64,000 nt of DNA from Patescibacteria group bacterium. Its GTDB lineage: Bacteria > Patescibacteriota > Minisyncoccia > Portnoybacterales > UBA2143. The notes under the pieces are model-generated. The model was not told the origin of the DNA. It made no database searches and was given only the letters and a program-made list of their open reading frames with translations. Location of the stretch: the NCBI GenBank assembly GCA_018830295.1, contig JAHJSM010000001.1:257980-321979 (forward strand). Direction: 5' to 3'. How positions within the stretch are numbered: position 1 is the stretch's first letter; each line of letters begins with the position of its first letter. Of the stretch, positions 34,128-62,054 are shown one piece after another. A program made the position numbers and the translations under genes.

Positions 34128-34140
34128 GGCAAAAAGGCTC

Positions 34141-34221
34141 CCGACCACTTTTCTCTTTGCAATTTTTTAATTTGATAAAAAAGGTCTGACCTTTTTAAAT
34201 TGGCGGCTTTTTAATCACTTT
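34141..34221. repeat. direct repeat copy B (CCCGACCACTTTTCTCTTTGCAATTTTTTAATTTGATAAAAAAGGTCTGACCTTTTT...TTTTTAATCAC)
   Basis: Read directly; partner of 32395-32520. Confidence 0.65.
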
Positions 34222-34310
34222 CTGTTCATGGGGACAGTCCCCCGTCTGCGGGGGCTGCCCCCATCATCTGCTTTTCTAAAAAGTTCCTGACACCTTTTTA
34301 CTTTATAATA

Positions 34311-34919: not shown

Positions 34920-34922
34920 AGT

Positions 34923-46873: not shown

Positions 46874-47092
46874 TTATCTTAAATCTTTTAGAGAACGCAA
46901 AACCACGCCCTTGCCGGCGTCAAATTCTTTGTCCATTTCTTCCAATTCAGCCAAGAGATTACTCTCTTCTTCGTAGTCGCGCAAAATAGAGCGAAAAAAT
47001 TCGCTGATACTGGCATACTTACCCTTTTTGACCTCCCGCCTGACCATTTTAGCCGTCGCGGCAGGCAAAGAAATATTGATGATATTGCGCAT
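46874..47092 (-). CDS. RHH-type antitoxin (ParD/CopG-like)
   Basis: 72 aa; N-terminal beta-strand 'NISLPAATAKMVRREV' then helices; inverted repeat TGTAATA-ATCTG-TATTACA (47125-47143) just upstream as a likely operator. Confidence 0.6.
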   Translation of the reverse strand: MRNIINISLPAATAKMVRREVKKGKYASISEFFRSILRDYEEESNLLAELEEMDKEFDAGKGVVLRSLKDLR

Positions 47093-47165: not shown

Positions 47166-48818
47166 TTGTCAAGTATTATGTTTAAAAATAAATTCAAAAT
47201 AAAAATCTTCTTTTCTGTTTGTCTTGTTTTTGTTTTCTGTCTCCCTTCTCTCGCCAGCGCTGGCGATGTTGTGATTAACGAAATTATGGTCGGTCAAACT
47301 GGCGCGGCTAAAAATGAATTTATTGAATTATACAATTCTACTGAAAACAACATTGATTTGACAGAATACAAGTTAAAAAAGAAAACAAAGAGCGGCGCTG
47401 AAAGCAATTTAGTTAGTTCGTCCAAATTTATCGGTATAATACCCGCGCGCGGGTATTTTTTAATCGCCCATCCTGATTACAAAAATACAATCAACGCCGA
47501 CCTCGCCTATTCGGGCTCCTCGTATTCTATCGCAAGCGACAATACCATTATTCTCTATAACAAAGAAGATACCGTTGTTGATAAGGTTGGCTATGGTGAA
47601 GAAGTTGTTGATTTTGAGAATCAAGCCGCCCCTAATCCAGAAAACAACCAAAGTATAGAGCGGCAACCAGTCGGATATGATTCAAACAACAATAGCGCTG
47701 ATTTTGTTATTCAAAGCACGCCCAATCCGCAAAACTCGGGCGGACAAGAAGAGATAGGGACAGTCCCCGCAACAGGGACTGTCCCTATCTCTTCCGCCGT
47801 CCCCACTCCCGTCGTTAACAATCCCCCTATTGCCAATGCCGGGTCGGATATGGTCGCTCTAATTGGACAGGAAATACTATTTGACGGCTCCCTGTCTTCT
47901 GACCCCGATAATGACGAGTTGTCGTATTTTTGGAACTTTGGCGATGGCGCGACCGACACTGAACAATTATCCAAACATACTTATCTTTATCCGGGACAAT
48001 ATATCGCAAGTTTGCTCGTTAACGACGGAGAATTTTCCGATTTGGCTCTTGTGAGCATTAATATCTACAATCAATCAGTTATTATCAGCGAATTTATGCC
48101 CGCTCCCGAAGAAGGAGACGCGGAAAATGAATGGATCGAATTATTTAACCAAAGCGACCAAATCGCTAATTTAACAAATTGGCAATTAGACGACCAAGAA
48201 GGCGGAAGTTCGCCTTTTGTTTTTCCAGCAAACAGTTTCATTGCGCCTAATCAATTTCTGGTTTTAATCAGGCCGATTACAAAAATCGCCCTCAATAACG
48301 ACAATGACCAAGTCCGCCTTATTTACCCCGACGGCTCTTTAGCCGCCGAAGTTGGATATTTAGCGGAAAAGAAAGAAGGGTTTTCAATCGCTTTTGACGG
48401 CTCTGAATATTTTTGGACAAAAACCCCCACGCCCGGTTCGCCTAATATTATTACCTCTAACAACCTAAACGCAAAAGAAGAAAATCTATCCGCCAACAAT
48501 CCCGACCCTATCGCCCAACAAGCCCAAAATACGCCAGAAAACATAGTCGCGGTTAATCTCAATCAAAGCGAGAGTTTTTCCGCCCTAAACGCGCCTGCGG
48601 AAAATGTCGGAAGCATAGAAAACAAAAAAACAGTTCTTTCGGAAACAGTCAACCCCCAAAACCAAACCGCATCTCTCGCCCAATCCGCCCAACCAAACCA
48701 AAAATCAACCTTAATTCTAATCATCTCAATCATAATCTCCACCGCCCTCCTCGCCAGTTGGGGATTGATTATGCTGTCAAAGAGAAAATCACTTAATAAT
48801 ATTACGCATAATGAATAA
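47166..48818 (+). CDS. lamin-tail-domain (LTD) surface protein with signal peptide, central PKD-like domain and C-terminal TM anchor
   Basis: 550 aa; two LTD-like modules ('VVINEIM...NEFIELYN', 'VIISEFMP...NEWIELFN'), PKD-like 'DPDNDELSYFWNFGDGATDTE', C-terminal hydrophobic anchor + 'SKRK'; probable true start ATG 47178. Confidence 0.75.
   Translation: MSSIMFKNKFKIKIFFSVCLVFVFCLPSLASAGDVVINEIMVGQTGAAKNEFIELYNSTENNIDLTEYKLKKKTKSGAESNLVSSSKFIGIIPARGYFLIAHPDYKNTINADLAYSGSSYSIASDNTIILYNKEDTVVDKVGYGEEVVDFENQAAPNPENNQSIERQPVGYDSNNNSADFVIQSTPNPQNSGGQEEIGTVPATGTVPISSAVPTPVVNNPPIANAGSDMVALIGQEILFDGSLSSDPDNDELSYFWNFGDGATDTEQLSKHTYLYPGQYIASLLVNDGEFSDLALVSINIYNQSVIISEFMPAPEEGDAENEWIELFNQSDQIANLTNWQLDDQEGGSSPFVFPANSFIAPNQFLVLIRPITKIALNNDNDQVRLIYPDGSLAAEVGYLAEKKEGFSIAFDGSEYFWTKTPTPGSPNIITSNNLNAKEENLSANNPDPIAQQAQNTPENIVAVNLNQSESFSALNAPAENVGSIENKKTVLSETVNPQNQTASLAQSAQPNQKSTLILIISIIISTALLASWGLIMLSKRKSLNNITHNE
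47753..47791. repeat. inverted repeat AGATAGGGACAGTCCC-CGCAACA-GGGACTGTCCCTATCT inside the LTD gene (in-frame, encodes IGTVPATGTVPIS)
   Basis: Read directly; arms match the intergenic copy at 55448-55488. Confidence 0.8.
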
Positions 48819-49539
48819 AAATGAAATTATAACGCAGAATGCTGTAAAATATGTTAAAGAAAATTCAAAAAAGATAATACAAGAAATTGTTGGCGATAAA
48901 GCATCTTTTGGTAAAAATAAACTTTTTTCTGTTTCTGTTTTTATGGCTGGTTCACCCGGCGCGGGGAAAACAGAAATGTCCAAAAAATCAATAGAAATTA
49001 TTGAACATGATCCCAACGCTAAAGCATACGAAAAAATCACTAGAATAGACCCCGATGATATCAGAGAAAAATTACCACTATATAACGGAAGAAATTCCGA
49101 CTTGTTCCAAGCCGCTTGCTCTGTAGCTGTTGATAAAATTCACGATTATGTTCTTAAAAATAATTTTGATTTTCTTTTAGACGGGACTTTCTCTAATTAC
49201 AATAAGGTAAGAGAAAATATCTACAGATCTATCAAAAGGAAACGGCTTATTTTTATTTACTATGTTTACCAAGACCCAGTAATCGCATGGGGTTTTACTA
49301 AAAAAAGAGAACAAATAGACGGAAGACATATCCCAAAAGAAGCTTTTATAGAACACTTTTTTAACGCGAAAGAAAATGTAAGTAAAATTAAAAAAGAATT
49401 TAAAGATTTAGTAAAAATCCGCGTCATAGAAAGAAACCTCAAAACTGACTATTCAAAAATTGGACTTGATGTTGATATTGATAATTATATTAAAATCGGA
49501 TATACTAAAGAAGAATTAAATAAATTGTTATTATGGTAG
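48811..49539 (+). CDS. zeta-toxin-like P-loop kinase (AAA domain) protein
   Basis: 242 aa; Walker A 'GSPGAGKTE', 'LLDGTFSNY'; overlaps the LTD gene end by 8 nt; family call tentative. Confidence 0.45.
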   Translation: MNKNEIITQNAVKYVKENSKKIIQEIVGDKASFGKNKLFSVSVFMAGSPGAGKTEMSKKSIEIIEHDPNAKAYEKITRIDPDDIREKLPLYNGRNSDLFQAACSVAVDKIHDYVLKNNFDFLLDGTFSNYNKVRENIYRSIKRKRLIFIYYVYQDPVIAWGFTKKREQIDGRHIPKEAFIEHFFNAKENVSKIKKEFKDLVKIRVIERNLKTDYSKIGLDVDIDNYIKIGYTKEELNKLLLW

Positions 49540-49751
49540 ATTATATTAAAAAACTGTTAAAAAACTGTTATAAATTTGGCAGAAAAGAAAAAGACACAAA
49601 GCCGCATTATGGTTCTTTTTACGCTTTCTCTAACTATTCTCCAGAAAGACAAAAAGAAATATTAACGCAAGCCGCCAAAGAAGCCAACAAAGAGCAAAGA
49701 GATTTGATAAACAGATACGATAAAACAATAAAGCCGATCCAAAAAGATTAA
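49533..49751 (+). CDS. small hypothetical protein
   Basis: 72 aa; 7-nt overlap with upstream gene; a terminator follows. Confidence 0.35.
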   Translation: MVDYIKKLLKNCYKFGRKEKDTKPHYGSFYAFSNYSPERQKEILTQAAKEANKEQRDLINRYDKTIKPIQKD

Positions 49752-49817: not shown

Positions 49818-49847
49818 TTGACACCTCCTCTCTCGCGATAGTATTAT
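49818..49847 (+). promoter_or_regulatory. sigma70-like promoter TTGACA-18-TATTAT ending about 6 nt before the yebC ATG (near-leaderless)
   Basis: Read directly. Confidence 0.4.
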
Positions 49848-49853
49848 GTAGGC

Positions 49854-50393
49854 ATGAGCGGACATAGTCATTTCTCAACTATTAAACATAAGAAGGGAGC
49901 GACTGATGTGAAGCGGGGCAAGATTTTTAGCAAGATGTCCCGTCTGATTAGCATTGCCGCGAGAGAGAAAGGGAGCGACCCAGAAATGAACCCTCGCTTG
50001 CGCATGGCGATTGACGCCGCGCGCAAAGAAAATATGCCCAAAGAAAATATTGAACGAGCAATTAAAAAGGGCTCGGGAGAAATTGAGGGAGCAAGAATGG
50101 AAGAAATTACTTACGAAGCATACGGTCCTTCAGGCGTGGCAATTATTATAGAAATTATTACCGACAACAAAAACCGAACGATTGCCGAGATTAGACACGC
50201 CTTAAAACAACATGACGGAAAACTCGCCGAAGGCGGAAGCGTTCTCTATCTTTTTAATAAAAAAGAAAACGAATGGGAACCCAAATATCCTTTGGAAATA
50301 ACTGACCAAAAAACCGTCAGCCAATTGGAAAAACTCTTTGAAGCGTTAGAAGAAAACGATGATGTGCAGGAAGTTTACAGTAATTTAAAGTAA
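49854..50393 (+). CDS. yebC: YebC/PmpR-family protein (short)
   Basis: 179 aa; 'GHSHFSTIKHKKGATDVKRGKIF', 'DPEMNPRLRMAID', 'YEAYGPSGVAIIIE..TDNKNRT'. Confidence 0.7.
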   Translation: MSGHSHFSTIKHKKGATDVKRGKIFSKMSRLISIAAREKGSDPEMNPRLRMAIDAARKENMPKENIERAIKKGSGEIEGARMEEITYEAYGPSGVAIIIEIITDNKNRTIAEIRHALKQHDGKLAEGGSVLYLFNKKENEWEPKYPLEITDQKTVSQLEKLFEALEENDDVQEVYSNLK

Positions 50394-50395
50394 TT

Positions 50396-50869
50396 ATGAT
50401 TATTATCGGCATTGACCCAGGAACAGCCATTACTGGATATGGAATTATAAAGAGCGAATTCGGCCGACTGGAAATGATTGACTATGGATGTATCCGAACC
50501 GAAACGTCTTTATCGACAGCCGAACGACTTAAAGAAACAGACCTTCAGTTTGTTAAGTTAATTAATGAATATCAGCCCGAAAAAGTGGCCGTTGAAGATA
50601 TTTTCTTTTTTAAAAATGCTAAGACCATCATTAAAGTAAGTCAGGCGCGAGGGGTAATTCTTTTCAGGGCGTCAAAAATGATGCTCCCTATTTTCGAACA
50701 CACGCCCCTTCAAGTCAAACAAGCTGTTACAGGATATGGTCGAGCCGACAAAAACCAAGTCCAGCAAATGGTCAAAAATATTCTTAAATTAAAAGAAATC
50801 CCTAAGCCCGACGACGCCGCCGACGCCTTAGCTATAGCCATCTGCTGCGCAAATACAAATAGTTTCTAA
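50396..50869 (+). CDS. ruvC: Holliday junction resolvase RuvC
   Basis: 157 aa; 'IIGIDPGTAITGYGI' RNase H-like fold with catalytic acidic residues. Confidence 0.9.
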   Translation: MIIIGIDPGTAITGYGIIKSEFGRLEMIDYGCIRTETSLSTAERLKETDLQFVKLINEYQPEKVAVEDIFFFKNAKTIIKVSQARGVILFRASKMMLPIFEHTPLQVKQAVTGYGRADKNQVQQMVKNILKLKEIPKPDDAADALAIAICCANTNSF

Positions 50870-50873: not shown

Positions 50874-51542
50874 ATGTCTTTTATCACCCAATACATGGTC
50901 AGCCAAGGAGTTCCTCAAGAGACGGTCATCCTTCTTTTGATGCTCCCGATTGTCGCGACGGTTATCGCTTTCGCGCGCCAAATTATCGGTATCAAGGGGT
51001 TTGGTATTTATACTCCCTTGATTCTCTCCTTCGCTTTTTTAAGCACCGGCCTCAAATATGGTTTGGCTTTTTTTGTGGCCATTCTTTTAGTCGGCACTGT
51101 CACAAGATATCTTGTTAAAAAAAGCCGTTTGCGTCTCCTCTATTTACCTCGCATCGCGATTGTTTTGTCTTCTGTCGCTTTGGCGATTTTAACTATTTTT
51201 TGGTTGGGGGCGTATACTGAAAAAACCGGACTAATATCGTCTTCTGTTTTCGCCATCTTAATTATGATTACTTTGGTTGAAAAATTTGTCTCCGCCCAAA
51301 TAGAAAGAGGAGCGAGAAAAGCGGTTATTCTAACATCTGAAACGCTCATTCTTTCTATTGTCTGCTATTGGGTCGCCAGTTGGCTCTGGCTGCAAAACAC
51401 AGTTTTCGCTTATCCTGTTTTGGTTTTTTTCGCGGCGATTATCATAAACATATTTCTCGGAAAATGGACTGGCTTGCGTTTTTATGAATATTTCCGCTTT
51501 AGAGAGTTAATTAAATATGTTGAATCCTCTCGGAAAAAGTAA
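50874..51542 (+). CDS. polytopic (about 7 TM) membrane protein, first gene of an ATP-grasp operon
   Basis: 222 aa; 6-7 hydrophobic helices; 26-nt overlap with the next gene. Confidence 0.55.
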   Translation: MSFITQYMVSQGVPQETVILLLMLPIVATVIAFARQIIGIKGFGIYTPLILSFAFLSTGLKYGLAFFVAILLVGTVTRYLVKKSRLRLLYLPRIAIVLSSVALAILTIFWLGAYTEKTGLISSSVFAILIMITLVEKFVSAQIERGARKAVILTSETLILSIVCYWVASWLWLQNTVFAYPVLVFFAAIIINIFLGKWTGLRFYEYFRFRELIKYVESSRKK

Positions 51543-52839
51543 GCATATCCTGGGCTTAAACGCCCGCAACTTGACTTACCTTCGGCCCTCTAATAATTTG
51601 AGGGCTGTTCGTATTGCGGACAATAAACTCACGACAAAGAGAATTCTCAAAAAAGCGGGCTTGCCCGTTCCTGAAACATTTTCGGTCGTCCGCCAAATTA
51701 AGGATTTGAGGGACTTTGACTGGGCGGCTCTTCCATCATCGTTTGTTCTTAAACCAAACCAAGGTCTGGGCGGCGAAGGTATTTTGATTGTTTACGGAAG
51801 AAAAAAGAAATTCCCTTATTCGTGGGTCAAGGCGGACCGAAGTCAATTAGACAACAGGGATTTAGAAAGCCACGCCTTAAATATTTTAGAGGGAACTTTT
51901 TCGCGAACAGGATTGCCCGACATCGCCTTTTTTGAGGAAAGAGTTAAACTTCTCAAACTTCTTAAGCCATATTCTTATCGCGGCATCCCGGATATAAGAA
52001 TTATCGTCTATAATTCCGTTCCCATTATGGCGGAAATGCGTTTACCGACAAGGGAATCCGGCGGAAAAGCGAATCTTCATTTAGGGGGAGTTGGCGTCGG
52101 AATAGATATGGGCGCGGGCGTTACAACCACAGCTATCCATCGAGACCGTCTGATTGAATACGCGCCAGGAACAAGGTTGCCCTTAAGCGGAATTCAAATC
52201 CCTGATTGGAAGGATGTCTTACGGCTGGCAATTCATGCTCAGGAGGTAACTAAAATTGGTTTTCTTGGAATAGATATTGCCCTTGACCGAGAAAAGGGTC
52301 CTGTTGTCTTAGAGCTCAATGTCCGCCCTGGATTATCTATTCAATTAGCCAATATGTCGCCGCTTAATGAACGGCTTAAAAGAGTCAAGGGCTTGAAAAT
52401 TAAAAACGCGAGCAAGGGCGTCAAAATAGCCCAAGATCTTTTCGGCGGCGATGTGGAAGAAGGACTTGAAGAAATTTCAGGTCGCAAAGTCATCGGCATC
52501 AACGAACCGATTGAAATTCTTGACGCGCGAAAAAACAAATACCCAACCATGGCGAAAATTGACACGGGAGCGTACCGAACAACTATTTGCAAGAATTTAG
52601 CCGAACAATTAGGCGTTATGAGCCAGATTGTTGGATATAAAAAAGTAAGAAGTGTTTTAGGCGCCGCGGAAAGGCCCATTATTAATCTTTCTTTTATTTT
52701 AGACAAACGGTTAGTCGCCGCCGAGGCGTTCGTCGCCGACCGTTCGGAAATGAAATACGACATTATTATCGGCCGTCGCGACCTGAAAAGATTTTTGGTT
52801 GACCCCGCGAAAAATGTTTTTATGAGAGGACAAAAATGA
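51517..52839 (+). CDS. ATP-grasp (RimK/alpha-L-glutamate-ligase-like) fused to a C-terminal retropepsin-like aspartic peptidase domain
   Basis: 440 aa; N-terminal ATP-grasp core, C-terminal 'AKIDTGAYRTT' (D-T-G-A) and 'DIIIGRRDL' matching the clan AA 'zinc-protease-like'/retropepsin family. Confidence 0.65.
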   Translation: MLNPLGKSKHILGLNARNLTYLRPSNNLRAVRIADNKLTTKRILKKAGLPVPETFSVVRQIKDLRDFDWAALPSSFVLKPNQGLGGEGILIVYGRKKKFPYSWVKADRSQLDNRDLESHALNILEGTFSRTGLPDIAFFEERVKLLKLLKPYSYRGIPDIRIIVYNSVPIMAEMRLPTRESGGKANLHLGGVGVGIDMGAGVTTTAIHRDRLIEYAPGTRLPLSGIQIPDWKDVLRLAIHAQEVTKIGFLGIDIALDREKGPVVLELNVRPGLSIQLANMSPLNERLKRVKGLKIKNASKGVKIAQDLFGGDVEEGLEEISGRKVIGINEPIEILDARKNKYPTMAKIDTGAYRTTICKNLAEQLGVMSQIVGYKKVRSVLGAAERPIINLSFILDKRLVAAEAFVADRSEMKYDIIIGRRDLKRFLVDPAKNVFMRGQK

Positions 52840-54359
52840 TTATTAAAGACCTTCAAACATTAAAAGAATTTTTTAACCAGCATCAGCCGCTCATTTTTGG
52901 GGCGGGCGTTTACGCTTTTGACCGACTGGGGATGGAAAAAATTATTCCTGATTACCGGATTATCGCCTTGCGGCATAGTTTGGACACAAAATTAATTGAA
53001 GAAGATGTTAAAATCCTCTCTTTGGAAAAGGGTATGGGAACAAAGCACATCCAAGAGGCGCGCAACGCCACGACCGTTATTAGCAGAATTCCAAAAACAA
53101 AAGAATATATCGAAAAAATCGCCACCAAAAACCCAAACCAACTCGGACCTTTTGTTCTTGTTTATAAACCATCTAAAAAAATGGAGGAAACTTGCGAAAA
53201 AAACGGCTGGAAATTAATAGCCAATCCTTTTGGTTTTGGGAAAGAACTTTTGGAGAATAAAATTAAGTTTAGAGAAATTCTTCAAGAAATTGGCATCCCT
53301 GTTCCATCGGGCAAAATCGCTTCCATTGATAAACTTCACTATGGTCATTTAATCAATAAATACGGCCTGCCTTTTGTGATTCAGCACCCAACAAGAGGCG
53401 GAGGCAAAGGAACTTTTTTTATCAATAACCGCGCCGACTTTGAGAAAGCAATTGAAAATTTAGAGAGCGTCTGGAACGAAGACGACGAACAAAAAGTTAA
53501 AGAGGCGGACGAAGTCGTTGTCGCAAAATTTATTGACGGCCCTTCGCCAAGCATCGCCGGATGCGTGACTAAATATGGTATTTTAACAACATCTCTCCAG
53601 TATCAGGTTTTGGATATTCCCGAACTCTACAACCCAGAAAAAGGCTCTGGGCTTTTTTGCGGGCACGATTGGACAAGCTCGCATTTTTCGGAATCAGTTT
53701 CAAAACAAGCGTTTGAGTATACGGAAAAGATTGGGGAATATTTCAAAAAACTTGGCTATCAGGGAATTTTTGGCTTGGATTTTGTTTTAAATAAAAAAAC
53801 CGACAAACTTTATGTCGTTGAATGCAACCCGCGACTCGTTGGGACGCTTCCAACGGTTAATATGGCGCAACTCCTGAATAACGAAGTTCCTATTCTTGCT
53901 TGCCATGTTTTGGAATTTTTAGGCGTTGACTATCAAATAGACATTGAAGCGGTCAACCAATCAATGCGTCAAGAAAAAAGAGGCGCCCATATGTTTGTCC
54001 GCAACTTAACCGGCCGCTGGGCAAAAAACCATCGTCAACTAAAAGCGGGTGTTTATAAACTAACAAAAGAAAATTCTTTGAAATATTTGAGGCCGGGCTA
54101 TGATTTATGCCACTTAGAAAACAATGAAGAGTTTTTATTAGCGGACGGCGTTCCGTTAAAAAAATCTCATTTCAGTCCCAATCGCCGCCTCTGTCGCGTC
54201 TTAACTCTTAACTCGTTATTAGACGAGACAGATTACAAAAAATTAAACCCCTGGGCAACGCAAGTAGCCCAAACCGTTTACGGGGCGTTCCAAATAAAAC
54301 CGGTCCGTTTCGTTAAAATTAAAAAATTCTTCGCCCCTAACTTCTTAGCAAAGGGCTAA
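52836..54359 (+). CDS. second ATP-grasp superfamily ligase with pre-ATP-grasp N-domain
   Basis: 507 aa; 'HPTRGGGKGTFF' phosphate-binding loop, 'LYVVECNPRL' C-terminal ATP-grasp motif; 4-nt overlap with the previous gene. Confidence 0.6.
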   Translation: MIIKDLQTLKEFFNQHQPLIFGAGVYAFDRLGMEKIIPDYRIIALRHSLDTKLIEEDVKILSLEKGMGTKHIQEARNATTVISRIPKTKEYIEKIATKNPNQLGPFVLVYKPSKKMEETCEKNGWKLIANPFGFGKELLENKIKFREILQEIGIPVPSGKIASIDKLHYGHLINKYGLPFVIQHPTRGGGKGTFFINNRADFEKAIENLESVWNEDDEQKVKEADEVVVAKFIDGPSPSIAGCVTKYGILTTSLQYQVLDIPELYNPEKGSGLFCGHDWTSSHFSESVSKQAFEYTEKIGEYFKKLGYQGIFGLDFVLNKKTDKLYVVECNPRLVGTLPTVNMAQLLNNEVPILACHVLEFLGVDYQIDIEAVNQSMRQEKRGAHMFVRNLTGRWAKNHRQLKAGVYKLTKENSLKYLRPGYDLCHLENNEEFLLADGVPLKKSHFSPNRRLCRVLTLNSLLDETDYKKLNPWATQVAQTVYGAFQIKPVRFVKIKKFFAPNFLAKG

Positions 54360-55447: not shown

Positions 55448-55488
55448 AGATAAGGACAGTCCCTCGCCGCGAGGGACTGTCCCTATCT
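55448..55488. repeat. inverted repeat AGATAAGGACAGTCCCTCG-CCG-CGAGGGACTGTCCCTATCT (GGGAC(A/T)GTCCC family) in the ychF 5' region
   Basis: Read directly; one mismatch between arms. Confidence 0.8.
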
Positions 55489-56285: not shown

Positions 56286-58760
56286 ATGCGAAAGAAGAAG
56301 AGGAAAATTATTAGGGCTCTTTTTAGATTTGCCGTTTTTTGCGGGGTTTTTTTCGTTTTGGGAGTTGTTGGGATTTTCGCCTATTTTGCCAAAGACCTGC
56401 CCGACCCGTCTAAAATGGAGGAGCGGCAGATTGTTGAGTCAACGAAAATTTACGACCGAACGGGAGAAGTAATACTTTATGATATTCACGGAGAGGAAAA
56501 AAGAACAATTATTCCTTTCGAAGAAATTCCCCAATTCGTCAAAGACGCGACAGTTGCGATTGAAGATGATAATTTTTACCATCATTTTGGCGTTGATTGG
56601 AAAGGAATTTTGCGCGCGGCCTGGGCGAATTTAAATAAAAATAAAATCTCTCAAGGCGGTTCCACAATCACCCAGCAATTTATTAAAAACGCCTACTTGG
56701 GTGGCCCCATGGCGGAAAGAACTTATCCGCGAAAAATAAAGGAAGTTGTTTTGGCGGTGGAATTAGAAAGCAAATATACAAAAGACGAAATTTTGGGATT
56801 TTATTTAAACCAAGTCCCCTACGGCTCAAACGCTTACGGAGTTGAATCGGCGAGCCAAACATTCCTTAATAAATCAGCGCGAGATATAACGCTGGCGGAA
56901 GCGGCGATTTTAGCCGCCCTAACCCAAGCGCCCAGTTATTATTCCCCTTACGGCTCACACCCGGAAGAACTTAAAAACAGACAGGAATATGTTTTAGACC
57001 GAATGGTTAAATTCAACTATATCACCGAGGAGCAGGCGAAAATAGCAAAAGAAGAAAAAATAGAATATGTTGGGCGATTAGACCTTAAAGCGCATCATTT
57101 TGTCGCGATGGTTGAAGAATATTTAGAAGAAAAATACAGCGGAACTTATGCCGATATTAATAAGGCGGGCTTAAAGGTTCACACTACTTTAGACTGGGAT
57201 CTCCAACAATTAGCCGAAGAAGTCGTCAACGAAGGAGCTCTGGAAAATGAGAAAAGATACAACGCCGATAACGCCGCTTTAGTGGCGCTTGATCCAAAAA
57301 CTGGACAGGTTCTCGCTCTGGTCGGCTCAAAAAACTACGCCGAAGACCAATTTAATGTCGCCACTAGCCCTTACCGACAGCCCGGCTCTTCTTTTAAGCC
57401 GTTCGCTTACGCCGCCGCTTTCCAAAAGGGATTTAATCCTGAAAGTATTTTATTTGATCTGCCGACCAGTTTTGGCAAATTCGGACCAGGAGAAGGGACG
57501 GAATACGCGCCAAACAATTATGACTTAAAATTCAGAGGGCCGCTCACGATGAGGCAGGCGCTCGCCCAATCCATCAACCTTCCCGCCGTTAAAACACTTT
57601 ACCTTGCCGGCGTCAGCGAAACGATCAACTTAGCGCAAGATATGGGAATTACGACCCTTAAAGACAGAAAGCAATATGGCTTGTCTTTGGTTTTGGGGGG
57701 CGGCGAGGTTAAACTTATAGACGAAACCGCCGCTTATGGCGTTTTCGCCGCCGAAGGGGTTAGACATCAAACAAACTTTATTCTTAAAATAGAGGACGCG
57801 GAAGGAAATATTTTAGAAGAATACAAGGACAAAGCGACAAATGTTTTAGAGCAACAAATCGCCCTTCAAATTACTGACATTCTCTCGGACGAAGCGGCGC
57901 GCGCGCCCATGTTCGGCGCCAAATCAAATCTTTATACCGCAGACCTACCAACCGCCGCCAAAACAGGCACAACCCAGGACTACACGGACGGATGGACAAT
58001 CGGATACACCCCACGATTAGTCGTTGGCGTCTGGGCGGGAAACAACGATTTTACGGAAAAAATGAAAAAAGGCGCGGCCGGTCTCTATGTCGCCGCCCCG
58101 ATTTGGAATGAGTTTATAACAAAAGCGCATGAGACACAAAACATAGAAGTAGAAAATTTTACGGCGCCTAAACCAATCACGAGTAGCGCGATTCCTATGC
58201 TCAACGGGGAAATCGCGTATAATAATAAAGTTAAAATTGATAAAATTTCCAAAAAATTAGCCACAAATTTAACTCCTCCTGATTTAATTGAAGAACATAT
58301 TTATCAAGAAGTTCATTGCGTCCTTTATTACACCAACAAATCCGCCGAAGACCCTCAATTCCAAAATTGGGAAGGACCTGTTTTAGAATGGGCGAGAAAT
58401 CAACCCTGCGCTAAAGGCGTTTGTTATAACCAAAATCCCCCGACTCAATCTGACGACATTCATACAATAGAAAACCAGCCGAAAATAAAAATCACTTCGC
58501 CCGAGCAAAACGATTTAATTAGCCAGTCGGTTTTAACTATCCAAGCCGAAGCCGAAGCGTCTTTAGGGATTAAACAAACCGACTTCTTTTTTAATAACCA
58601 ATTAATCGGTTCTGACACAATTAAGCCATACTCCGTCAATTTCAACATTCTCCCCTATCTAACTAATTCCTCCACCCAAACAATCAAGGTCCGCGCCTAC
58701 GACACCGTCCTCAACAGACAAGAAGACGAGATAGAGATAAAGACGGTTTTTACGCCTTGA
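56286..58760 (+). CDS. mrcA: penicillin-binding protein 1A (bifunctional GT51 transglycosylase/transpeptidase)
   Basis: 824 aa; GT51 motifs 'EDDNFYHHFGVD', 'GGSTITQQF'; transpeptidase 'SSFKP', 'KTGTT'. Confidence 0.9.
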   Translation: MRKKKRKIIRALFRFAVFCGVFFVLGVVGIFAYFAKDLPDPSKMEERQIVESTKIYDRTGEVILYDIHGEEKRTIIPFEEIPQFVKDATVAIEDDNFYHHFGVDWKGILRAAWANLNKNKISQGGSTITQQFIKNAYLGGPMAERTYPRKIKEVVLAVELESKYTKDEILGFYLNQVPYGSNAYGVESASQTFLNKSARDITLAEAAILAALTQAPSYYSPYGSHPEELKNRQEYVLDRMVKFNYITEEQAKIAKEEKIEYVGRLDLKAHHFVAMVEEYLEEKYSGTYADINKAGLKVHTTLDWDLQQLAEEVVNEGALENEKRYNADNAALVALDPKTGQVLALVGSKNYAEDQFNVATSPYRQPGSSFKPFAYAAAFQKGFNPESILFDLPTSFGKFGPGEGTEYAPNNYDLKFRGPLTMRQALAQSINLPAVKTLYLAGVSETINLAQDMGITTLKDRKQYGLSLVLGGGEVKLIDETAAYGVFAAEGVRHQTNFILKIEDAEGNILEEYKDKATNVLEQQIALQITDILSDEAARAPMFGAKSNLYTADLPTAAKTGTTQDYTDGWTIGYTPRLVVGVWAGNNDFTEKMKKGAAGLYVAAPIWNEFITKAHETQNIEVENFTAPKPITSSAIPMLNGEIAYNNKVKIDKISKKLATNLTPPDLIEEHIYQEVHCVLYYTNKSAEDPQFQNWEGPVLEWARNQPCAKGVCYNQNPPTQSDDIHTIENQPKIKITSPEQNDLISQSVLTIQAEAEASLGIKQTDFFFNNQLIGSDTIKPYSVNFNILPYLTNSSTQTIKVRAYDTVLNRQEDEIEIKTVFTP

Positions 58761-59850
58761 TTGGCATTATAACATAAGTATAGCTAATATCTCCAAAGGG
58801 TCTGACTACTACTGGTTTTGTGTCGGCATTTAGTCCTATAATTACTTTGTCGCTGAAAATATTATTTAACCCATCTAAGAAATAGCGGGAATTTAATATT
58901 ATATCCAAACCCTTTCCTTCAATTTTCGCTTCTAATTGCGACTTGTTTTCTCCAATATCTCCGCTCTTCGCGGAAACCTCTATTATTGATTTGTCGGGCT
59001 TGATTGAAAAATTAATATTATTATTTTTCTCGCTAAACAAACTGGCGATTTTAATATTATTAATTAATTCTGCCTTATTAACCACAACCTGGGTTATAAA
59101 TTTATTTGGGATAATCTGTTGATAATCTGGGTATTGACCATCTATTAACCTGGAGATAATTTGAACATCGCCTAAATCAAATAAAACCTGATTATGAGAC
59201 AAAATAATATCCACATCAATATCATCTTCCCCTAAAATCCTAATCAACTCTTGAACTGTTTTTTGGGGGATAATAATAAACTGCTTGTTTAATTTTTTAT
59301 CATTAATTTCAATGTTTTTTTCAGCCAAACGAAAACTATCAGTCGCGGCTAATTTAATTGAATTATTATTAAATTCCATATAAACGCCTGATATTTCTGG
59401 ACGCGATTCAGAAAAAGAAACCATATCCACAACTTGCGCGAAATTATTTTTCAAAACACTTCCTTTTATTTTTATTAAAGGACTGTCGGTAATTTTAGGA
59501 ATAATTGGAAAATCATCAGAACTTAAGCCATTAATAACTGACTTATAATTCTCGCATTTAACCTCTAATTGGTTATTTTTTGTTTTAAGTAATATTTTTT
59601 TATTAGGCAAGTTATTCACAAAACTGCTAATTAATTTAGCCGGCACGGTAATACTGCCCTCTTTTTCAATCTTCCCGCTTAACCAGCAATTAATCCCTAT
59701 TTCTAAATTAGTTGAAGATATTTTTAGTTTATTTTTTTCGGTGGATAAAAGTATATTATTTAAAATAGGTAAAGTTAAACTTCTGCCTATAATTCTTTCG
59801 GCGATATTTAAAACCTTTTTAAAATTTTCTTGAAGACAAATTAATTGCAT
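58750..59850 (-). CDS. dnaN: DNA polymerase III beta sliding clamp
   Basis: 366 aa; three-domain beta-clamp pattern, immediately downstream of dnaA. Confidence 0.85.
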   Translation of the reverse strand: MQLICLQENFKKVLNIAERIIGRSLTLPILNNILLSTEKNKLKISSTNLEIGINCWLSGKIEKEGSITVPAKLISSFVNNLPNKKILLKTKNNQLEVKCENYKSVINGLSSDDFPIIPKITDSPLIKIKGSVLKNNFAQVVDMVSFSESRPEISGVYMEFNNNSIKLAATDSFRLAEKNIEINDKKLNKQFIIIPQKTVQELIRILGEDDIDVDIILSHNQVLFDLGDVQIISRLIDGQYPDYQQIIPNKFITQVVVNKAELINNIKIASLFSEKNNNINFSIKPDKSIIEVSAKSGDIGENKSQLEAKIEGKGLDIILNSRYFLDGLNNIFSDKVIIGLNADTKPVVVRPFGDISYTYVIMPIKA

Positions 59851-59930
59851 ATTTTTTAGTTTATTTTTTTATTTAACAACTCTTATAATTATTATAATTT
59901 AATTAAATTTATAATCATTATCATTAGGAC

Positions 59931-60033
59931 TGTGGAAAACTGGATAACTTATTTTTTTGGCTTGTTTATTATATTTATTAAGTAATTTTTATTGAATAAT
60001 TTGTGGATATTATGATATTTATTATGTGGATAA
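59931..60033. promoter_or_regulatory. DnaA-box cluster in the dnaA-dnaN spacer (oriC candidate): TGTGGAAAA 59931, TGGATAACT 59941, TGTGGATAT 60002, TGTGGATAA 60025
   Basis: Matches to TTATCCACA/TGTGGATAA consensus read directly in an extremely AT-rich 187-bp spacer. Confidence 0.6.
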
Positions 60034-60037
60034 AATG

Positions 60038-61396
60038 TTAATTATATAGCCGTTCTTTGATTAAATCTATCTCCTGTTGAAAAGACGAATTATTTTTTAA
60101 TGCATTGTCTATTTTTTGGCAAGCATACATTACGGTTGTGTGGTCGCGACCGCCGACTTTTTCACCAATAAAAGGATAAGACCCGCTTAATTCTTTTCTA
60201 ATTAAATACATACTAATTTGGCGTGGTTGGACTAATTCTTTTTTTCTTGAACGGTTAATTAAATCACTAATATTAATATCATAAAATTCAGCCACTGTTT
60301 TAATTATATTTTTATAATTTGTTGTTTTTTGAGGGGGGTTAATAATTTGAGAAAGTATTTTAGAAGCGCCTTCTAGTGTAGGAATAGTGTTATTTAATTG
60401 AGAATAAGCGATGACGCGGTTAAGCGCCCCTTCTAATTCTCTAATATTTCTTTGGACATTTGTGGCGATATAAGTTAAAACATCTTCGGAAATTTTAAAT
60501 TCCTTCTCTTTTGTTTTGTTTTTTAAAATAGCTATTCTTGTTTCTAAATCAGGATAACTAATATCAGCGATCATTCCTCCTTCAAAACGCGAACGAAGCC
60601 GATCTTCTAATGTGGAAATCGCGCTTGGTTGTCTATCGGAAGTAATAATAATTTGCTTGTTTTTCTGATAAAGATAATTAAATGTATGAAAAAATTCTTC
60701 TTGAGTTTTTTCTTTGCCGGCGATAAACTGAATATCATCCATAATTAAAACATCTATTTTGCGATATTTATCTTTAAAACTATCCATCCCCTTTTTTCTA
60801 ATAGCATTAATTAATTCGTTGGTAAATTTTTCAGAACTTAAGTATTTTACTTTTTTAGGCGGATTTTTTTTTATTAAATGATTTCCAATTGCCTGCATAA
60901 GGTGGGTTTTACCTAACCCTACTCCTCCATAGACAAAAAGGGGGTTATAGAGTGTTCCAAGATTTTTAGTAATTGCTCTACCCGCCGCTTGGGCTAATTC
61001 ATTAAAAGAACCAATAACAAAATTATCAAAAGTATATTTAGGATTTAAGTTTGTTTCTTTATTAATAGAAAACTCTTGAAAATTAAGTTGGCTTCCGATT
61101 GAATCGGGAATTCGAATCGTTTCGTTTTTAGAATCGTCGTTTATCTGTTTTGCTTTGCCGATAATAAAATTAACCTCTTTAATGTCGGTTGAATTATCGC
61201 GAAGAATTTTTAAAATAAGTTTATTATACTTATTTTCCAGCCACTCTTTGGTAAATCCATTTGGCGCGCTCACAGTAATTAACCCTTCTTTTTGGGAATC
61301 AATCTTGGTGTCTCTAAACCAAGTAATAAAACTTGCTTTAGAAATATTTAATTCAACCTCGCCTAAGACGGTTTGCCAGAGTTCTTTTAAGTTCAT
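60038..61396 (-). CDS. dnaA: chromosomal replication initiator DnaA
   Basis: 452 aa; AAA+ 'LFVYGGVGLGKTHLMQAIGN', C-terminal DNA-binding domain IV. Confidence 0.95.
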   Translation of the reverse strand: MNLKELWQTVLGEVELNISKASFITWFRDTKIDSQKEGLITVSAPNGFTKEWLENKYNKLILKILRDNSTDIKEVNFIIGKAKQINDDSKNETIRIPDSIGSQLNFQEFSINKETNLNPKYTFDNFVIGSFNELAQAAGRAITKNLGTLYNPLFVYGGVGLGKTHLMQAIGNHLIKKNPPKKVKYLSSEKFTNELINAIRKKGMDSFKDKYRKIDVLIMDDIQFIAGKEKTQEEFFHTFNYLYQKNKQIIITSDRQPSAISTLEDRLRSRFEGGMIADISYPDLETRIAILKNKTKEKEFKISEDVLTYIATNVQRNIRELEGALNRVIAYSQLNNTIPTLEGASKILSQIINPPQKTTNYKNIIKTVAEFYDINISDLINRSRKKELVQPRQISMYLIRKELSGSYPFIGEKVGGRDHTTVMYACQKIDNALKNNSSFQQEIDLIKERLYN

Positions 61397-61490
61397 AATG
61401 ATTATAAAATAATTTAAACTTATTATAGCACAAGCAAGAAATTTATAAAATACAAAAAAAGATGATTTTGTTAATAATATGTTAATAATA

Positions 61491-61557
61491 TGTGGAAAAG
61501 TTTATTGTTGGATTTATCTATTGTATTTGACTATGCCTGTTTGAGGTGTTATCCTAA
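61491..61557. promoter_or_regulatory. DnaA-box-like sites upstream of dnaA (TGTGGAAAA 61491; TTATCCTAA 61549) plus tandem ATGTTAATAAT repeat; also the rpmH promoter region
   Basis: Read directly. Confidence 0.4.
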
Positions 61558-61568
61558 ATTAAAAAAAT

Positions 61569-61703
61569 ATGTCTATTACTTATCAACCAAAAAAGAATAA
61601 AAGAAAGAAAACAAGCGGGTTTAGAAAAAGAATGTCCACACAAATGGGCAAGAAAGTTTTGTCTAATAGAAGAGGAAAAAAGAGAAAAAAACTAACCGCG
61701 TAA
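61569..61703 (+). CDS. rpmH: 50S ribosomal protein L34
   Basis: 44 aa '[44 protein letters not shown]'; not in the ORF track (too short); classic rpmH-rnpA order. Confidence 0.85.
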
Positions 61704-61715
61704 TTAATTCGGCGC

Positions 61716-62054
61716 ATGTTACCCAAAGAACATAAACTAAAAAAGAAAAACGATTTTAAGGCAGTATTTAACAACGGAAGATATTGTCAGAAGAGTTTTA
61801 TTAAATTAAAATTTGCGAAAAACAACCTTCAAAAAAATCGCTTTGGGTTTATTGTGGGATTAAAAGTATCTAAAAAAGCGGTGGAAAGAAACCAAATTAA
61901 ACGGCGACTAGAAGAAATAACGCGGCTAATTTTTAATGAATTAAAGCAAGGGTTTGATGTTGTAGTTATGGTTGACCCCGTAATTAAAGAAAAAATATAC
62001 AGCGAGATTAAAGAAGAATTAGTAGGATTATATAAAAAAGTTATATGGAAATAA
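61716..62054 (+). CDS. rnpA: RNase P protein component
   Basis: 112 aa; basic 'RLKKKNDFKAVF' RnpA motif. Confidence 0.85.
   Translation: MLPKEHKLKKKNDFKAVFNNGRYCQKSFIKLKFAKNNLQKNRFGFIVGLKVSKKAVERNQIKRRLEEITRLIFNELKQGFDVVVMVDPVIKEKIYSEIKEELVGLYKKVIWK

What the first reader, a model, noticed from the sequence alone, without database searches (positions are those of the whole stretch)
50874..54359. 7TM membrane protein + ATP-grasp-retropepsin fusion + second ATP-grasp: a predicted ribosome-independent peptide-ligase/tagging system
Three genes with 26-nt and 4-nt overlaps follow yebC-ruvC. They encode a ~7-helix membrane protein; a RimK/alpha-L-glutamate-ligase-like ATP-grasp enzyme fused to a retropepsin-like aspartic peptidase domain (D-T-G-A motif 'AKIDTGA', 'IIIGRRDL'); and a second ATP-grasp ligase with a pre-ATP-grasp domain. 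Comparative-genomics surveys have noted linkages of RimK-like ATP-grasp ligases with 7TM proteins and retropepsin-like peptidases. They predicted these systems make or trim peptide tags or polymers at the membrane, but I am not aware of any experimental characterisation. The fused ligase-peptidase plus second ligase arrangement here is a compact variant in what looks like a reduced genome, so whatever it makes is probably important to the organism.
Basis: partly seen in the sequence, partly recalled or inferred. Interest (0 to 1): 0.7.

Follow-up and report, generated by a model that had tools for sequence, protein, structure and literature searches.

The report
Compact CPR version of Rlo ligase–peptidase system
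Three tightly packed genes in a tiny-genome (Patescibacteria) bacterium encode a membrane protein, an ATP-dependent peptide ligase fused to a retrovirus-type protease, and a second ligase; this is a stripped-down, previously undescribed variant of the Rlo cell-envelope stress system recently studied in Pseudomonas, and its chemical product is still unknown.

Summary
The three ORFs (50874-51542, 51517-52839, 52836-54359, + strand) overlap by 26 and 4 nt and follow yebC-ruvC. They encode a 7TM_transglut membrane protein, an RloC-type ATP-grasp fused to a retropepsin domain, and a three-domain ATP-grasp of the biotin-carboxylase/PurK/amino-acid-ligase class.

The linkage is no longer uncharacterised: it is homologous to rloABC of P. 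aeruginosa (mBio 2025). There RloA cleaves poly-Glu, and loss of RloB or RloC suppresses loss of the RloA proteases.

The window carries a Patescibacteria variant. The 7TM protein lacks the transglutaminase domain, and the peptidase is fused to the cytoplasmic ligase instead of being secreted. The catalytic residues and RloA's poly-Glu-binding residues are conserved in 80/80 loci.

- At least 583 GTDB species genomes encode a relative.
- The 7TM-fusion gene pair is adjacent in 78/80 loci.
- The window's second ATP-grasp is present in only 25/80. Elsewhere the slot holds 1-4 RimK-like ligases, with or without Mur-ligase-like, MATCAP, YdjC, GT4 or GNAT genes.
- Fusion proteins elsewhere (7TM+ligase; ligase+retropepsin+second ATP-grasp) support a physical complex.

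Most likely it is a membrane-docked machine that builds and trims an acidic peptide for the envelope. It is a new variant of a known kind, of moderate interest.

The parts
50874..51542 (+). 7TM membrane protein. It is homologous to the C-terminal 7TM half of RloB and has no transglutaminase domain.
   Evidence: PF14402 99.5 bits. NF052267 RloB is matched only at profile positions 311-507/508. Seven hydrophobic segments, a basic C-terminal tail and many invariant polar residues (E16, R35, Q36, Y46, P48, R78, Y90, P92, R93, E136, K137, Q142, E156, R202, E205, R208) in 121 homologues. Adjacent to the fusion gene in 78/80 loci. Fused to the ligase in P0490, P0504 and P0510.
51517..52839 (+). Ligase-peptidase fusion gene (440 aa). 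Its start overlaps the end of the 7TM gene by 26 nt.
   Evidence: The exact protein is P0001, named 'RimK/LysX family protein [Patescibacteria group bacterium]'.
51565..52389 (+). RloC-type ATP-grasp domain (residues 17-291).
   Evidence: PF14397 218 bits. TIGR02291 274 bits over 9-314/317, which is below the 314 cut-off. K79, E140, E141, R161, N186, D253, E266 and N268 are invariant in 80/80 loci. The motifs DIR...NLHxGG and GxDI...ELNxxPGL align to solved RimK structures.
52441..52482 (+). Conserved Glu-rich linker (residues 309-322, FGGDVEEGLEEISG; family consensus FGGE[IV]EEE.E[ED].SG).
   Evidence: a mean of 5.6 acidic residues out of 11 across the 81 aligned sequences (80 loci plus the window). 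A role as pseudo-substrate or self-cleavage site is inference only.
52489..52815 (+). Retropepsin-like aspartic peptidase domain (residues 325-433). Catalytic D349-T-G-A lies at 52561-52572.
   Evidence: PF05618 30.7 bits. A profile of this domain hits the RloA crystal structures 9g59 (E 1.3e-7) and 9g58 (1.3e-6), then Ddi1 (4.5e-5) and the EIAV and HTLV proteases. D349, G351, A352 and R409 are conserved in 80/80 loci, T/S350 in 80/80, K/R347 in 80/80 and R386 in 79/80.
52836..54359 (+). Second ATP-grasp enzyme (507 aa): pre-ATP-grasp domain (about residues 1-130), ATP-grasp core (about 140-340) and a C-terminal domain (about 350-507). Its start overlaps the fusion gene by 4 nt.
49818..49847 (+). 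Best promoter-like site (11/12), directly upstream of yebC. It suggests one transcription unit: yebC-ruvC-7TM-fusion-second ATP-grasp.
   Evidence: The intergenic gaps are 2 nt, 4 nt, -26 nt and -4 nt. This is a consensus match only.
49854..50869 (+). yebC and ruvC, the conserved upstream neighbours.
   Evidence: Pfam. ruvC lies upstream in 69/80 loci and yebC in 64/80.
56286..58760 (+). Class-A penicillin-binding protein (transglycosylase + transpeptidase + Big_7), a conserved downstream neighbour. This is context and not shown to be part of the system.
   Evidence: Pfam. Downstream in 55/80 loci. In seven loci ruvA follows it directly.

Best explanation
This is a Patescibacteria-lineage, minimal variant of the Rlo (RloB-RloC-RloA) type of system. 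A cytoplasmic RloC-family ATP-grasp amidoligase is docked on the cytoplasmic face of a 7TM protein. It uses ATP to build an alpha-linked, probably glutamate-rich acidic peptide, either as a free chain or on a carrier or substrate.

The retropepsin domain fused to the ligase dimerises and cuts that acidic chain, which would set its length or release it. The second ATP-grasp enzyme adds a further, different residue (priming, capping or branching). In other lineages that step is done by 1-4 RimK-like ligases, sometimes with Mur-ligase-like enzymes. The 7TM protein passes the product to, or couples it with, the cell envelope.

Shown here: the homology, the conserved catalytic and acidic-substrate-binding residues, the gene linkage and the fusion architectures.
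Inferred: the identity of the polymer, the order of steps, export by the 7TM protein, and the envelope target.
For: Homology to Rlo:
- The ligase matches PF14397 at 218 bits and TIGR02291 at 274 bits. Its nearest standalone relatives (38-45% identity) pass the TIGR02291 cut-off.
- The 7TM protein matches the C-terminal half of the RloB model.
- The peptidase-domain profile has the RloA crystal structures as its best solved relatives.

Active enzymes:
- The ATP-grasp core residues are essentially invariant and the D-[TS]-G-A motif is present in 80/80 species-level loci.

Acidic substrate:
- RloA residues shown by mutagenesis to bind poly-Glu (K46, R114, R137) align to K347, R386 and R409. The 23-residue R-to-R spacing is the same, and the residues are kept in 80/80 (K or R), 79/80 and 80/80 loci.
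- RloA and RimB cleave poly-Glu, and RimK makes poly-alpha-Glu.

Physical and functional coupling:
- The 7TM gene is adjacent in 78/80 loci and overlaps the fusion by 26 nt here.
- Fusion proteins elsewhere join 7TM+ligase (P0490, P0504, P0510) and ligase+retropepsin+second ATP-grasp (P0375), confirmed by Pfam.
- An extra ATP-grasp gene lies downstream in 76/80 loci.
- When a MATCAP metallopeptidase is fused, the retropepsin D[TS]G motif is lost in 33/37 proteins. Without MATCAP it is kept in 40/49. This suggests a peptidase activity is required and is replaceable.

Genetics in P. aeruginosa:
- Deleting rloB or rloC suppresses the triple rloA deletion. This fits RloB/RloC making something that the protease must process.

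Envelope link:
- Rlo phenotypes include hypo-osmotic sensitivity, beta-lactam sensitivity and cell-shape defects.
- A Shewanella RloB-homologue mutant hyper-vesiculates.
- A class-A PBP is a conserved neighbour in 55/80 loci.
Against: - No product or substrate is known for any member of this family, RloC included.
- The ligase falls below the TIGR02291 equivalog cut-off (274 vs 314 bits).
- The peptidase here is cytoplasmic (fused, no signal peptide), unlike secreted RloA. The Pseudomonas model of periplasmic processing therefore cannot transfer directly.
- The 7TM protein lacks the transglutaminase domain.
- The AF2 model of the fusion was poor (pLDDT 52), so the retropepsin fold and dimer rest on sequence profiles alone.
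- Synteny with the PBP may only reflect conserved housekeeping gene order in CPR genomes.
- The second ATP-grasp is structurally as close to carboxylases (biotin carboxylase, PurK) as to peptide ligases.
- No Glu-rich candidate substrate or precursor-peptide gene is present in the window.
Confidence: 0.6

Rival explanations
1. Peptidoglycan-precursor tailoring. The ATP-grasp ligases (and the Mur-ligase-like enzymes in related loci) add side-chain or cross-bridge amino acids to the cytoplasmic or lipid-linked muropeptide. The 7TM protein scaffolds them at the membrane next to the class-A PBP.
For: A class-A PBP lies downstream in 55/80 loci, and the 7TM-to-PBP block is embedded in yebC-ruvC...ruvA. 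Related loci carry Mur-ligase-like, YdjC (sugar deacetylase) and GT4 genes. Both window ligases hit the archaeal pseudomurein ATP-grasp model weakly. Rlo mutants have cell-wall-type phenotypes. From general knowledge: ATP-grasp enzymes such as Ddl and D-aspartate ligase act on peptidoglycan precursors.
Against: An endopeptidase that keeps RloA's poly-Glu-binding residues, or a fused MATCAP carboxypeptidase, is not expected in a simple precursor-tailoring pathway. Synteny with the PBP could be housekeeping gene order. The Ddl-type model hits are far below their cut-offs.
Confidence: 0.15
2. A free storage or osmolyte polymer, cyanophycin-like or poly-amino-acid. The ligases build it and the peptidase mobilises it, with no envelope target. 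The 7TM protein acts only as an anchor or exporter.
For: The ligase's N-terminal half hits cyanophycin synthetase weakly (PDB 7wac E 0.004; TIGR02068 5.8e-7). Related loci pair ATP-grasp and Mur-ligase-like genes, like the G and M domains of cyanophycin synthetase. Lormand et al. discuss poly-alpha-Glu as an osmolyte reservoir.
Against: The cyanophycin synthetase model scores 27.9 against a cut-off of 850. The window itself has no Mur-ligase-like gene. The obligate pairing with a 7TM protein whose polar intramembrane residues are heavily conserved argues for a membrane-linked step.
Confidence: 0.12
3. A RimK/RimB-type ribosome modifier. [quoted passage not shown]
For: The peptidase is cytoplasmic and physically joined to the ligase, which resembles the RimB-RimK complex. 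The catalytic motifs align to solved RimK structures.
Against: The RimK family model scores 49.7 against a cut-off of 143.4, and the RimB model 17.9 against 200. The RloC-type model scores 274. The invariant pairing with, and occasional fusion to, a 7TM protein has no counterpart in Rim. S6 is not in the window, so its C-terminus could not be checked.
Confidence: 0.07
4. The three genes are neighbours by chance or conserved synteny and do not act together.
For: They lie in a block of housekeeping genes (yebC, ruvC, ychF, PBP, dnaN) whose order is conserved in these genomes.
Against: The coding regions overlap. The 7TM-fusion pair is adjacent in 78/80 loci. Fusion proteins join 7TM to the ligase and the ligase-retropepsin to the second ATP-grasp. 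The homologous genes in Pseudomonas show epistasis.
Confidence: 0.03

Closest known systems
RloABC operon of Pseudomonas aeruginosa (Lormand et al., mBio 2025, PMC12239564)
   Same: The same three protein families are linked in one operon: a 7TM_transglut membrane protein, a PF14397/TIGR02291-type ATP-grasp and a PF05618 retropepsin-like peptidase. The catalytic DTGA motif and the poly-Glu-binding Lys/Arg residues of RloA are conserved.
   Different: The 7TM protein lacks the periplasmic inactive transglutaminase domain. The peptidase has no signal peptide and is fused to the C-terminus of the cytoplasmic ligase. There is an extra three-domain ATP-grasp gene. The host is Patescibacteria, whereas that paper reports 96% of RloB hits in Proteobacteria. 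The ligase, RloA and RloB models all score below their NCBIfam cut-offs.
RimK-RimB (with or without RimA) ribosomal protein S6 glutamylation system (PMC11957791)
   Same: An ATP-grasp alpha-L-glutamate-ligase-type core is paired with a cytoplasmic retropepsin-like endopeptidase that is physically associated with the ligase. The logic is opposing add and trim activities.
   Different: The ligase belongs to the RloC subfamily and not the RimK subfamily. The system is obligately paired with a 7TM membrane protein. There is no evidence for S6 as substrate, and additional ligases are present.
Amidoligase gene neighbourhoods predicted by comparative genomics (Iyer, Abhiman, Burroughs and Aravind 2009, Mol Biosyst; source of the Pfam families ATPgrasp_ST and 7TM_transglut)
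   Same: The association of an ATP-grasp, a 7TM protein and a peptidase, predicted to make or modify peptides or surface polymers.
   Different: I could not read that paper (not held), so I cannot say whether the CPR fused form, the swap to MATCAP or the variable ligase array were described there.
Eukaryotic tubulin tail code (TTL/TTLL ATP-grasp ligases versus MATCAP/CCP carboxypeptidases)
   Same: In sister lineages the same ligase is fused to a MATCAP-family metallopeptidase. This is an ATP-grasp 'writer' joined to a C-terminal 'eraser', as in tubulin tyrosination and glutamylation.
   Different: This is an analogy of logic only. The window protein carries a retropepsin, not MATCAP, and no protein substrate is known.
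Three-domain ATP-grasp ligases and carboxylases (biotin carboxylase, PurK, PylC, BesA, PGM1, BacD)
   Different: Identity is only 10-17%. All family models score below their cut-offs. There is a distinct roughly 150-residue C-terminal region with the invariant motifs CGHDW and SPNRRLCR. No biotin carrier or carboxyltransferase partner is present.

Membership tests
Rlo system (RloA/RloB/RloC) | RloC-type ATP-grasp ligase (PF14397; NCBIfam TIGR02291 equivalog) | tested here: inconclusive
   PF14397 scores 218 bits against a cut-off of 31.4, so it is met. TIGR02291 scores 274.2 bits over 9-314/317 of the model, which is below the 314.2 cut-off. Standalone relatives at 38-45% identity pass the cut-off.
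Rlo system (RloA/RloB/RloC) | RloB: seven TM helices fused to a periplasmic inactive transglutaminase domain | tested here: not met
   The 7TM part is present (PF14402 99.5 bits). The protein is only 222 aa and matches RloB model positions 311-507/508 alone, at 72 bits against a cut-off of 900.
Rlo system (RloA/RloB/RloC) | RloA: standalone secreted (signal-peptide) retropepsin-like peptidase | tested here: not met
   The domain is homologous (best PDB hits are RloA 9g59 and 9g58). However, it is fused C-terminally to the ATP-grasp with no signal peptide or TM segment. RloA models score 22-27 bits against cut-offs of 210-280.
Rlo system (RloA/RloB/RloC) | The three families are encoded together in one operon | tested here: met
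   The ORFs overlap here. The 7TM gene is adjacent to the ligase-retropepsin gene in 78/80 loci.
Rlo system (RloA/RloB/RloC) | Peptidase binds and cleaves poly-Glu through K46, R114 and R137 | tested here: inconclusive
   The aligned residues K347, R386 and R409 are conserved. Activity cannot be tested with these tools.
Rlo system (RloA/RloB/RloC) | Role in hypo-osmotic stress tolerance, cell shape and beta-lactam tolerance | not testable with these tools
   This is a phenotype known only for P. aeruginosa.
RimK/RimB | RimK-family alpha-L-glutamate ligase (TIGR00768) | tested here: not met
   49.7 bits against a cut-off of 143.4.
RimK/RimB | RimB equivalog peptidase (NF052261) | tested here: not met
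   17.9 bits against a cut-off of 200.
RimK/RimB | Substrate is ribosomal protein S6 with an acidic C-terminus | not testable with these tools
The rest of the genome is not available here.
Retropepsin-like aspartic peptidases (clan AA; PF05618) | Catalytic D-[TS]-G-A motif and a C-terminal G-[RK]-[RK]-[DN] motif | tested here: met
   AKIDTGA at residues 346-352 and IIIGRRDL at 416-423. D349, G351 and A352 are conserved in 80/80 loci and G419 in 80/80.
Retropepsin-like aspartic peptidases (clan AA; PF05618) | Retropepsin fold | tested here: inconclusive
   PF05618 scores 30.7 bits against a cut-off of 27. The profile hits RloA (E 1.3e-7), Ddi1 (4.5e-5) and the EIAV and HTLV proteases. The AF2 model of the fusion was poor (pLDDT 52; the domain region scored about 55-73).
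Retropepsin-like aspartic peptidases (clan AA; PF05618) | Active as a homodimer, each chain giving one Asp | not testable with these tools
   There is a single DTG per chain, so a dimer is implied by the family's chemistry. No multimer modelling was available.
ATP-grasp superfamily (second enzyme, 52836-54359) | ATP-grasp fold with a pre-ATP-grasp domain, a nucleotide-binding Lys and the Mg-binding D/E-E-N residues | tested here: met
Biotin carboxylase / PRK06524 'biotin carboxylase-like' | Score above the family cut-off, and a biotin-carrier or carboxyltransferase partner | tested here: not met
   PRK06524 scores 153.5 against 684 and accC 25 against 626. No such partners are among the neighbours.
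Cyanophycin synthetase | ATP-grasp G domain plus Mur-ligase-like M domain; TIGR02068 | tested here: not met
   27.9 bits against a cut-off of 850. There is no Mur-ligase-like gene in the window, although some related loci have one.

The most novel reading that the evidence does not exclude
Patescibacteria carry a self-contained 'write-and-cut' peptide machine. It would combine a membrane-docked polypeptide joining an RloC-type ligase to an active retropepsin with a lineage-variable set of further ATP-grasp ligases. Together these would assemble defined-length acidic hetero-oligopeptides without ribosomes and hand them through the 7TM protein to the cell wall or cell surface. That would be a so far unknown envelope polymer or modification in these episymbiotic, reduced-genome bacteria. 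The conserved Glu-rich linker would serve as a built-in pseudo-substrate or self-processing site.
Probability: 0.15. Interest if true: 0.8.

Novelty: new variant of a known kind. Interest (0 to 1): 0.5.

Why it matters
The Rlo system matters for osmotic tolerance, antibiotic tolerance, biofilm formation and cell shape in Pseudomonas, but its product is unknown. The Patescibacteria version is the same machine reduced to essentials:
- no transglutaminase domain;
- the peptidase is fused to the ligase;
- all catalytic and poly-Glu-binding residues are retained.

It occurs in at least 583 species with very small genomes, embedded among housekeeping genes. This has three consequences:
1. The core function needs only the 7TM module, the ligase and a peptidase.
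2. The natural fusions (7TM+ligase; ligase+peptidase+second ligase; the swap to MATCAP with a dead retropepsin) predict who binds whom.
3. The single-chain enzyme is a convenient target for finding the product in vitro.

It may also point to an undescribed envelope component in CPR bacteria, whose cell-surface biology underlies their episymbiotic lifestyle.

Tried and rejected
- **AF2 model of the fusion protein.** Built from a 25-sequence, low-diversity alignment; pLDDT was 52. It was too poor for fold search, so it was not used. The retropepsin assignment rests on profile searches instead.
- **Fold search of the second ATP-grasp against afdb50.** The library was unavailable.
- **Iyer et al. 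2009.** The paper is not held, so the original prediction could not be read.
- **Extra system parts elsewhere in the window.** I searched for RimK-like ligases, Mur-ligase-like, MATCAP, YdjC, GT4 and GNAT genes and found none.
- **S6 and encoded poly-Glu/Asp stretches in the window.** None found, so no candidate substrate.
- **Apparent in-frame fusions in the loci.** Eight of the 80 loci gave over-long read-throughs, seven of which appeared to join the ligase-retropepsin to RimK-like ligases. All were artefacts of reading through a stop codon and the claim is withdrawn. They are separate, closely spaced genes.
- **Antisense 171-aa ORF (52341-52856, - strand).** It lies inside the fusion gene and is treated as spurious.

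Full report
**1. The observation**

The + strand carries three ORFs at exactly the reported coordinates:
- 50874-51542 (222 aa)
- 51517-52839 (440 aa)
- 52836-54359 (507 aa)

They overlap by 26 and 4 nt. They follow yebC (49854-50393) and ruvC (50396-50869) with gaps of 2 and 4 nt. The 3' end overlaps convergent ychF by 4 nt. The best promoter-like site in the region (11/12) lies just upstream of yebC, so all five genes may form one transcription unit. This is a consensus match only. Identical proteins are on record from a 'Patescibacteria group bacterium' on a 744,622-bp contig.

**2. Domain assignments**

*ORF1 (7TM protein).*
- It matches PF14402 7TM_transglut (99.5 bits).
- In NCBIfam it matches only the C-terminal half (positions 311-507 of 508) of RloB, the 'osmotic stress tolerance membrane protein'. 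It therefore lacks the inactive transglutaminase domain.
- It has seven hydrophobic segments and a basic C-terminal tail.
- About 60 positions, many of them charged or polar, are at least 97% conserved in 121 homologues. That is more than a passive anchor would need.

*ORF2 (ligase-peptidase fusion), ligase half.*
- Residues 17-291 match PF14397 ATPgrasp_ST (218 bits).
- They also match TIGR02291 'alpha-L-glutamate ligase-like protein' (274 bits over nearly the full model, just under the 314 cut-off).
- The RimK family model scores only 49.7 bits.
- The closest standalone relatives (about 315-324 aa, 38-45% identity) do pass the TIGR02291 cut-off.

*ORF2, peptidase half.*
- The C-terminal 110 residues pass PF05618. 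That family's name, 'ATP-dependent zinc protease', is a misnomer: Lormand et al. classify its members as retropepsin-like aspartic peptidases.
- A profile of this domain finds as its best solved relatives 9g59 and 9g58 (E 1.3e-7 and 1.3e-6). These are the RloA crystal structures.
- The next hits are the Ddi1 retropepsin domain (4.5e-5) and the EIAV and HTLV proteases.

*ORF3 (second ATP-grasp).*
- It models confidently (pLDDT 92.3, pTM 0.91) as pre-ATP-grasp domain + ATP-grasp + C-terminal domain.
- All family-specific models score far below their cut-offs.
- Its class is clear. Its substrate is not.

**3. Conservation of the chemistry**

Across the 80 species-level loci:

| Element | Residues | Conservation |
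|---|---|---|
| ATP-grasp core of the fusion | K79, E140, E141, R161, N186, D253, E266, N268 | invariant in 80/80 |
| ATP-grasp core, position 188 | H188 | H in 37, Q in 41 |
| Peptidase catalytic motif | D349, G351, A352 | 80/80 |
| Peptidase catalytic motif | T/S350 | 80/80 |

Lormand et al. showed by mutagenesis that RloA binds poly-Glu through K46, R114 and R137. Using the HMMER alignments to 9g58 (construct numbering = RloA numbering minus 20), these correspond to K347, R386 and R409 of the window protein. The 23-residue spacing between the two arginines is the same. These residues are kept in 80/80 (K or R), 79/80 and 80/80 loci. The mapping is my inference from the printed alignments.

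A Glu-rich linker (FGGE[IV]EEE.E[ED].SG; window residues 309-322) directly precedes the peptidase domain and is conserved. It could be a pseudo-substrate or a self-processing site. That is a hypothesis only.

**4. Co-conservation**

All of the best 80 encode the full-length fusion at 47-87% identity. They come from Patescibacteria/Parcubacteria lineages such as Moranbacteria, Paceibacteria and Portnoybacteria. Several third-party MAG titles give other taxa but show the same synteny.

| Neighbour of the fusion gene | Loci (of 80) | Source |
|---|---|---|
| 7TM gene immediately upstream | 78 (the other two are contig edges) | |
| ruvC upstream | 69 | |
| yebC upstream | 64 | |
| Class-A PBP a few kb downstream | 55 | |
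| The window's second ATP-grasp | 25 | |
| Any additional ATP-grasp downstream | 76 (two of the four exceptions are contig ends) | |

Where the window's second ATP-grasp is absent, the same slot holds 1-4 tandem RimK-like or GSH-synthetase-like ATP-grasp genes (55 loci). These are often accompanied by Mur-ligase-like, YdjC, GT4, GNAT or MATCAP (DUF1704) genes. Even close relatives of the window (71-76% identity) have made this swap.

The fixed core is therefore 7TM + ligase-retropepsin, and the extra ligase module is interchangeable. None of the accessory families occurs elsewhere in the 64-kb window.

**5. Fusion architectures elsewhere**

Among the 150 best cluster representatives from the exhaustive search:
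- 48 are the ligase alone.
- About 44 are ligase + retropepsin.
- About 37 are ligase + retropepsin + MATCAP (about 800 aa).
- 5 are 7TM + ligase. P0490, P0504 and P0510 are confirmed by Pfam.
- P0375 (926 aa) is ligase + retropepsin + a second ATP-grasp of the window's type, in the window's gene order.
- P0384, from a Patescibacteria MAG, is similar by my own HMM.
- P0363 adds a YdjC domain.

The D[TS]G motif is retained in 40/49 retropepsin domains without MATCAP but lost in 33/37 with MATCAP. This implies that a peptidase activity is required but replaceable, and that the retropepsin domain also has a structural role.

Apparent in-frame ligase-RimK-like fusions in seven of the loci, among eight over-long read-throughs, were artefacts of reading through a stop codon and are not claimed.

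**6. What is known**

- The linkage was predicted by Iyer et al. 2009. I know this paper only from citations; it is not held.
- The linkage was characterised in 2025 as rloABC of P. aeruginosa:
  - RloA proteases are secreted retropepsins that cleave runs of at least 8 Glu.
  - The triple rloA mutant is hypo-osmotically sensitive, beta-lactam sensitive, biofilm-defective and misshapen.
  - Deleting rloB or rloC suppresses these defects.
  - The product of RloB/RloC is unknown.
- That paper reports RloB as 96% proteobacterial and does not mention Patescibacteria or fused forms.
- RimK/RimB is the cytoplasmic cousin acting on ribosomal protein S6.
- A Shewanella RloB-homologue mutant hyper-vesiculates.

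**7. Mechanism proposed**

Shown: homology, intact active sites, conserved residues that bind acidic substrates, obligate pairing with the 7TM protein, and the fusion architectures.

Inferred:
- The ligase sits on the cytoplasmic tail of the 7TM protein. The N-out, C-in topology is the same as in RloB, and in the natural fusions the 7TM domain is N-terminal to the ligase.
- It polymerises or attaches alpha-linked acidic residues.
- The fused retropepsin, as a dimer, trims or releases the chain.
- The second ATP-grasp adds a different residue.
- The 7TM protein passes the product to the envelope.

Because the peptidase here is cytoplasmic, trimming must happen before export. In this respect the system resembles RimK-RimB more than RloA.

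**8. Rivals**

The rivals I considered are peptidoglycan-precursor tailoring, a free storage or osmolyte polymer, and S6 modification. They are listed with their evidence in the rival explanations.

The PBP synteny is suggestive but may be housekeeping gene order. In seven loci ruvA directly follows the PBP, so the whole 7TM-to-PBP block lies inside yebC-ruvC...ruvA.

**9. Verdict**

- This is a new, widespread, compact variant of a known but biochemically unsolved system.
- Interest is moderate. It is not a new category. It is, however, a useful minimal model, and the fusion and replacement patterns make the question of what Rlo makes more directly testable.

Noticed in passing
window 48811-49751 and 46874-47092: A Zeta_toxin-family kinase gene (PF06414, 116.7 bits) is followed by an overlapping 72-aa ORF with no Pfam match. 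A separate RHH/CopG antitoxin-like 72-aa ORF lies on the minus strand at 46874-47092. The order toxin-then-small-ORF is unusual for epsilon/zeta modules.
   Followed up: no
window 47166-48818: A 550-aa protein with two lamin-tail domains flanking a PKD domain and a C-terminal hydrophobic anchor. It is probably a cell-surface protein.
   Followed up: no
window 49854-50393: YebC is only 179 aa. Its second/third-domain Pfam match covers just positions 1-56 of 160. In many related loci the similarity to it also ends near residue 135.
   Followed up: no
window 55448-55488: A 19-bp-stem, GC-rich inverted repeat that reads as a terminator on both strands. It lies just upstream of the ychF start, in the 55.4-56.3 kb gap.
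   Followed up: no
window 29803-30223 and 8941-9028: tmRNA (128 bits; tag peptide ending ...APNLALAVA) and tRNA-Leu(CAA). These are the only Rfam or ARAGORN hits in the window.
   Followed up: no
window 16000-18000, 32000-36000, 58000-62000: Stretches of markedly lower G+C (0.30-0.34, against about 0.40 elsewhere). They may be islands or AT-rich genes.
   Followed up: no
L026, L030, L036, L039, L041, L045, L070 (about 9.7-14.6 kb in locus coordinates): ruvA directly follows the class-A PBP. The block 7TM-ligases-PBP is therefore embedded in the classical yebC-ruvC...ruvA cluster in Moranbacteria-type genomes. ruvA is not in the window.
   Followed up: partly
P0371, P0362 and about 35 further representatives; L024:4800-5918; L031:10104-11501: MATCAP/DUF1704 metallopeptidases are fused or adjacent to the ligase-retropepsin. 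In the fused forms the retropepsin has usually lost its D[TS]G motif (33/37). This looks like peptidase replacement with the dead domain retained.
   Followed up: partly
L030, L032, L035, L036, L063, L074, L076 and others (record titles): Third-party MAG titles such as 'Bdellovibrionales', 'Gammaproteobacteria', 'Bathyarchaeia', 'Pacearchaeota' and 'Saccharibacteria' are attached to contigs with the same Patescibacteria-type synteny at 45-60% identity. The labels look unreliable.
   Followed up: no
L043:9481-11370 (cluster c7; five loci): A roughly 620-aa protein with an HExxH motif (AHEIEGH) and no Pfam match recurs between the ligases and the PBP. It may be another metallopeptidase of this neighbourhood.
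   Followed up: no
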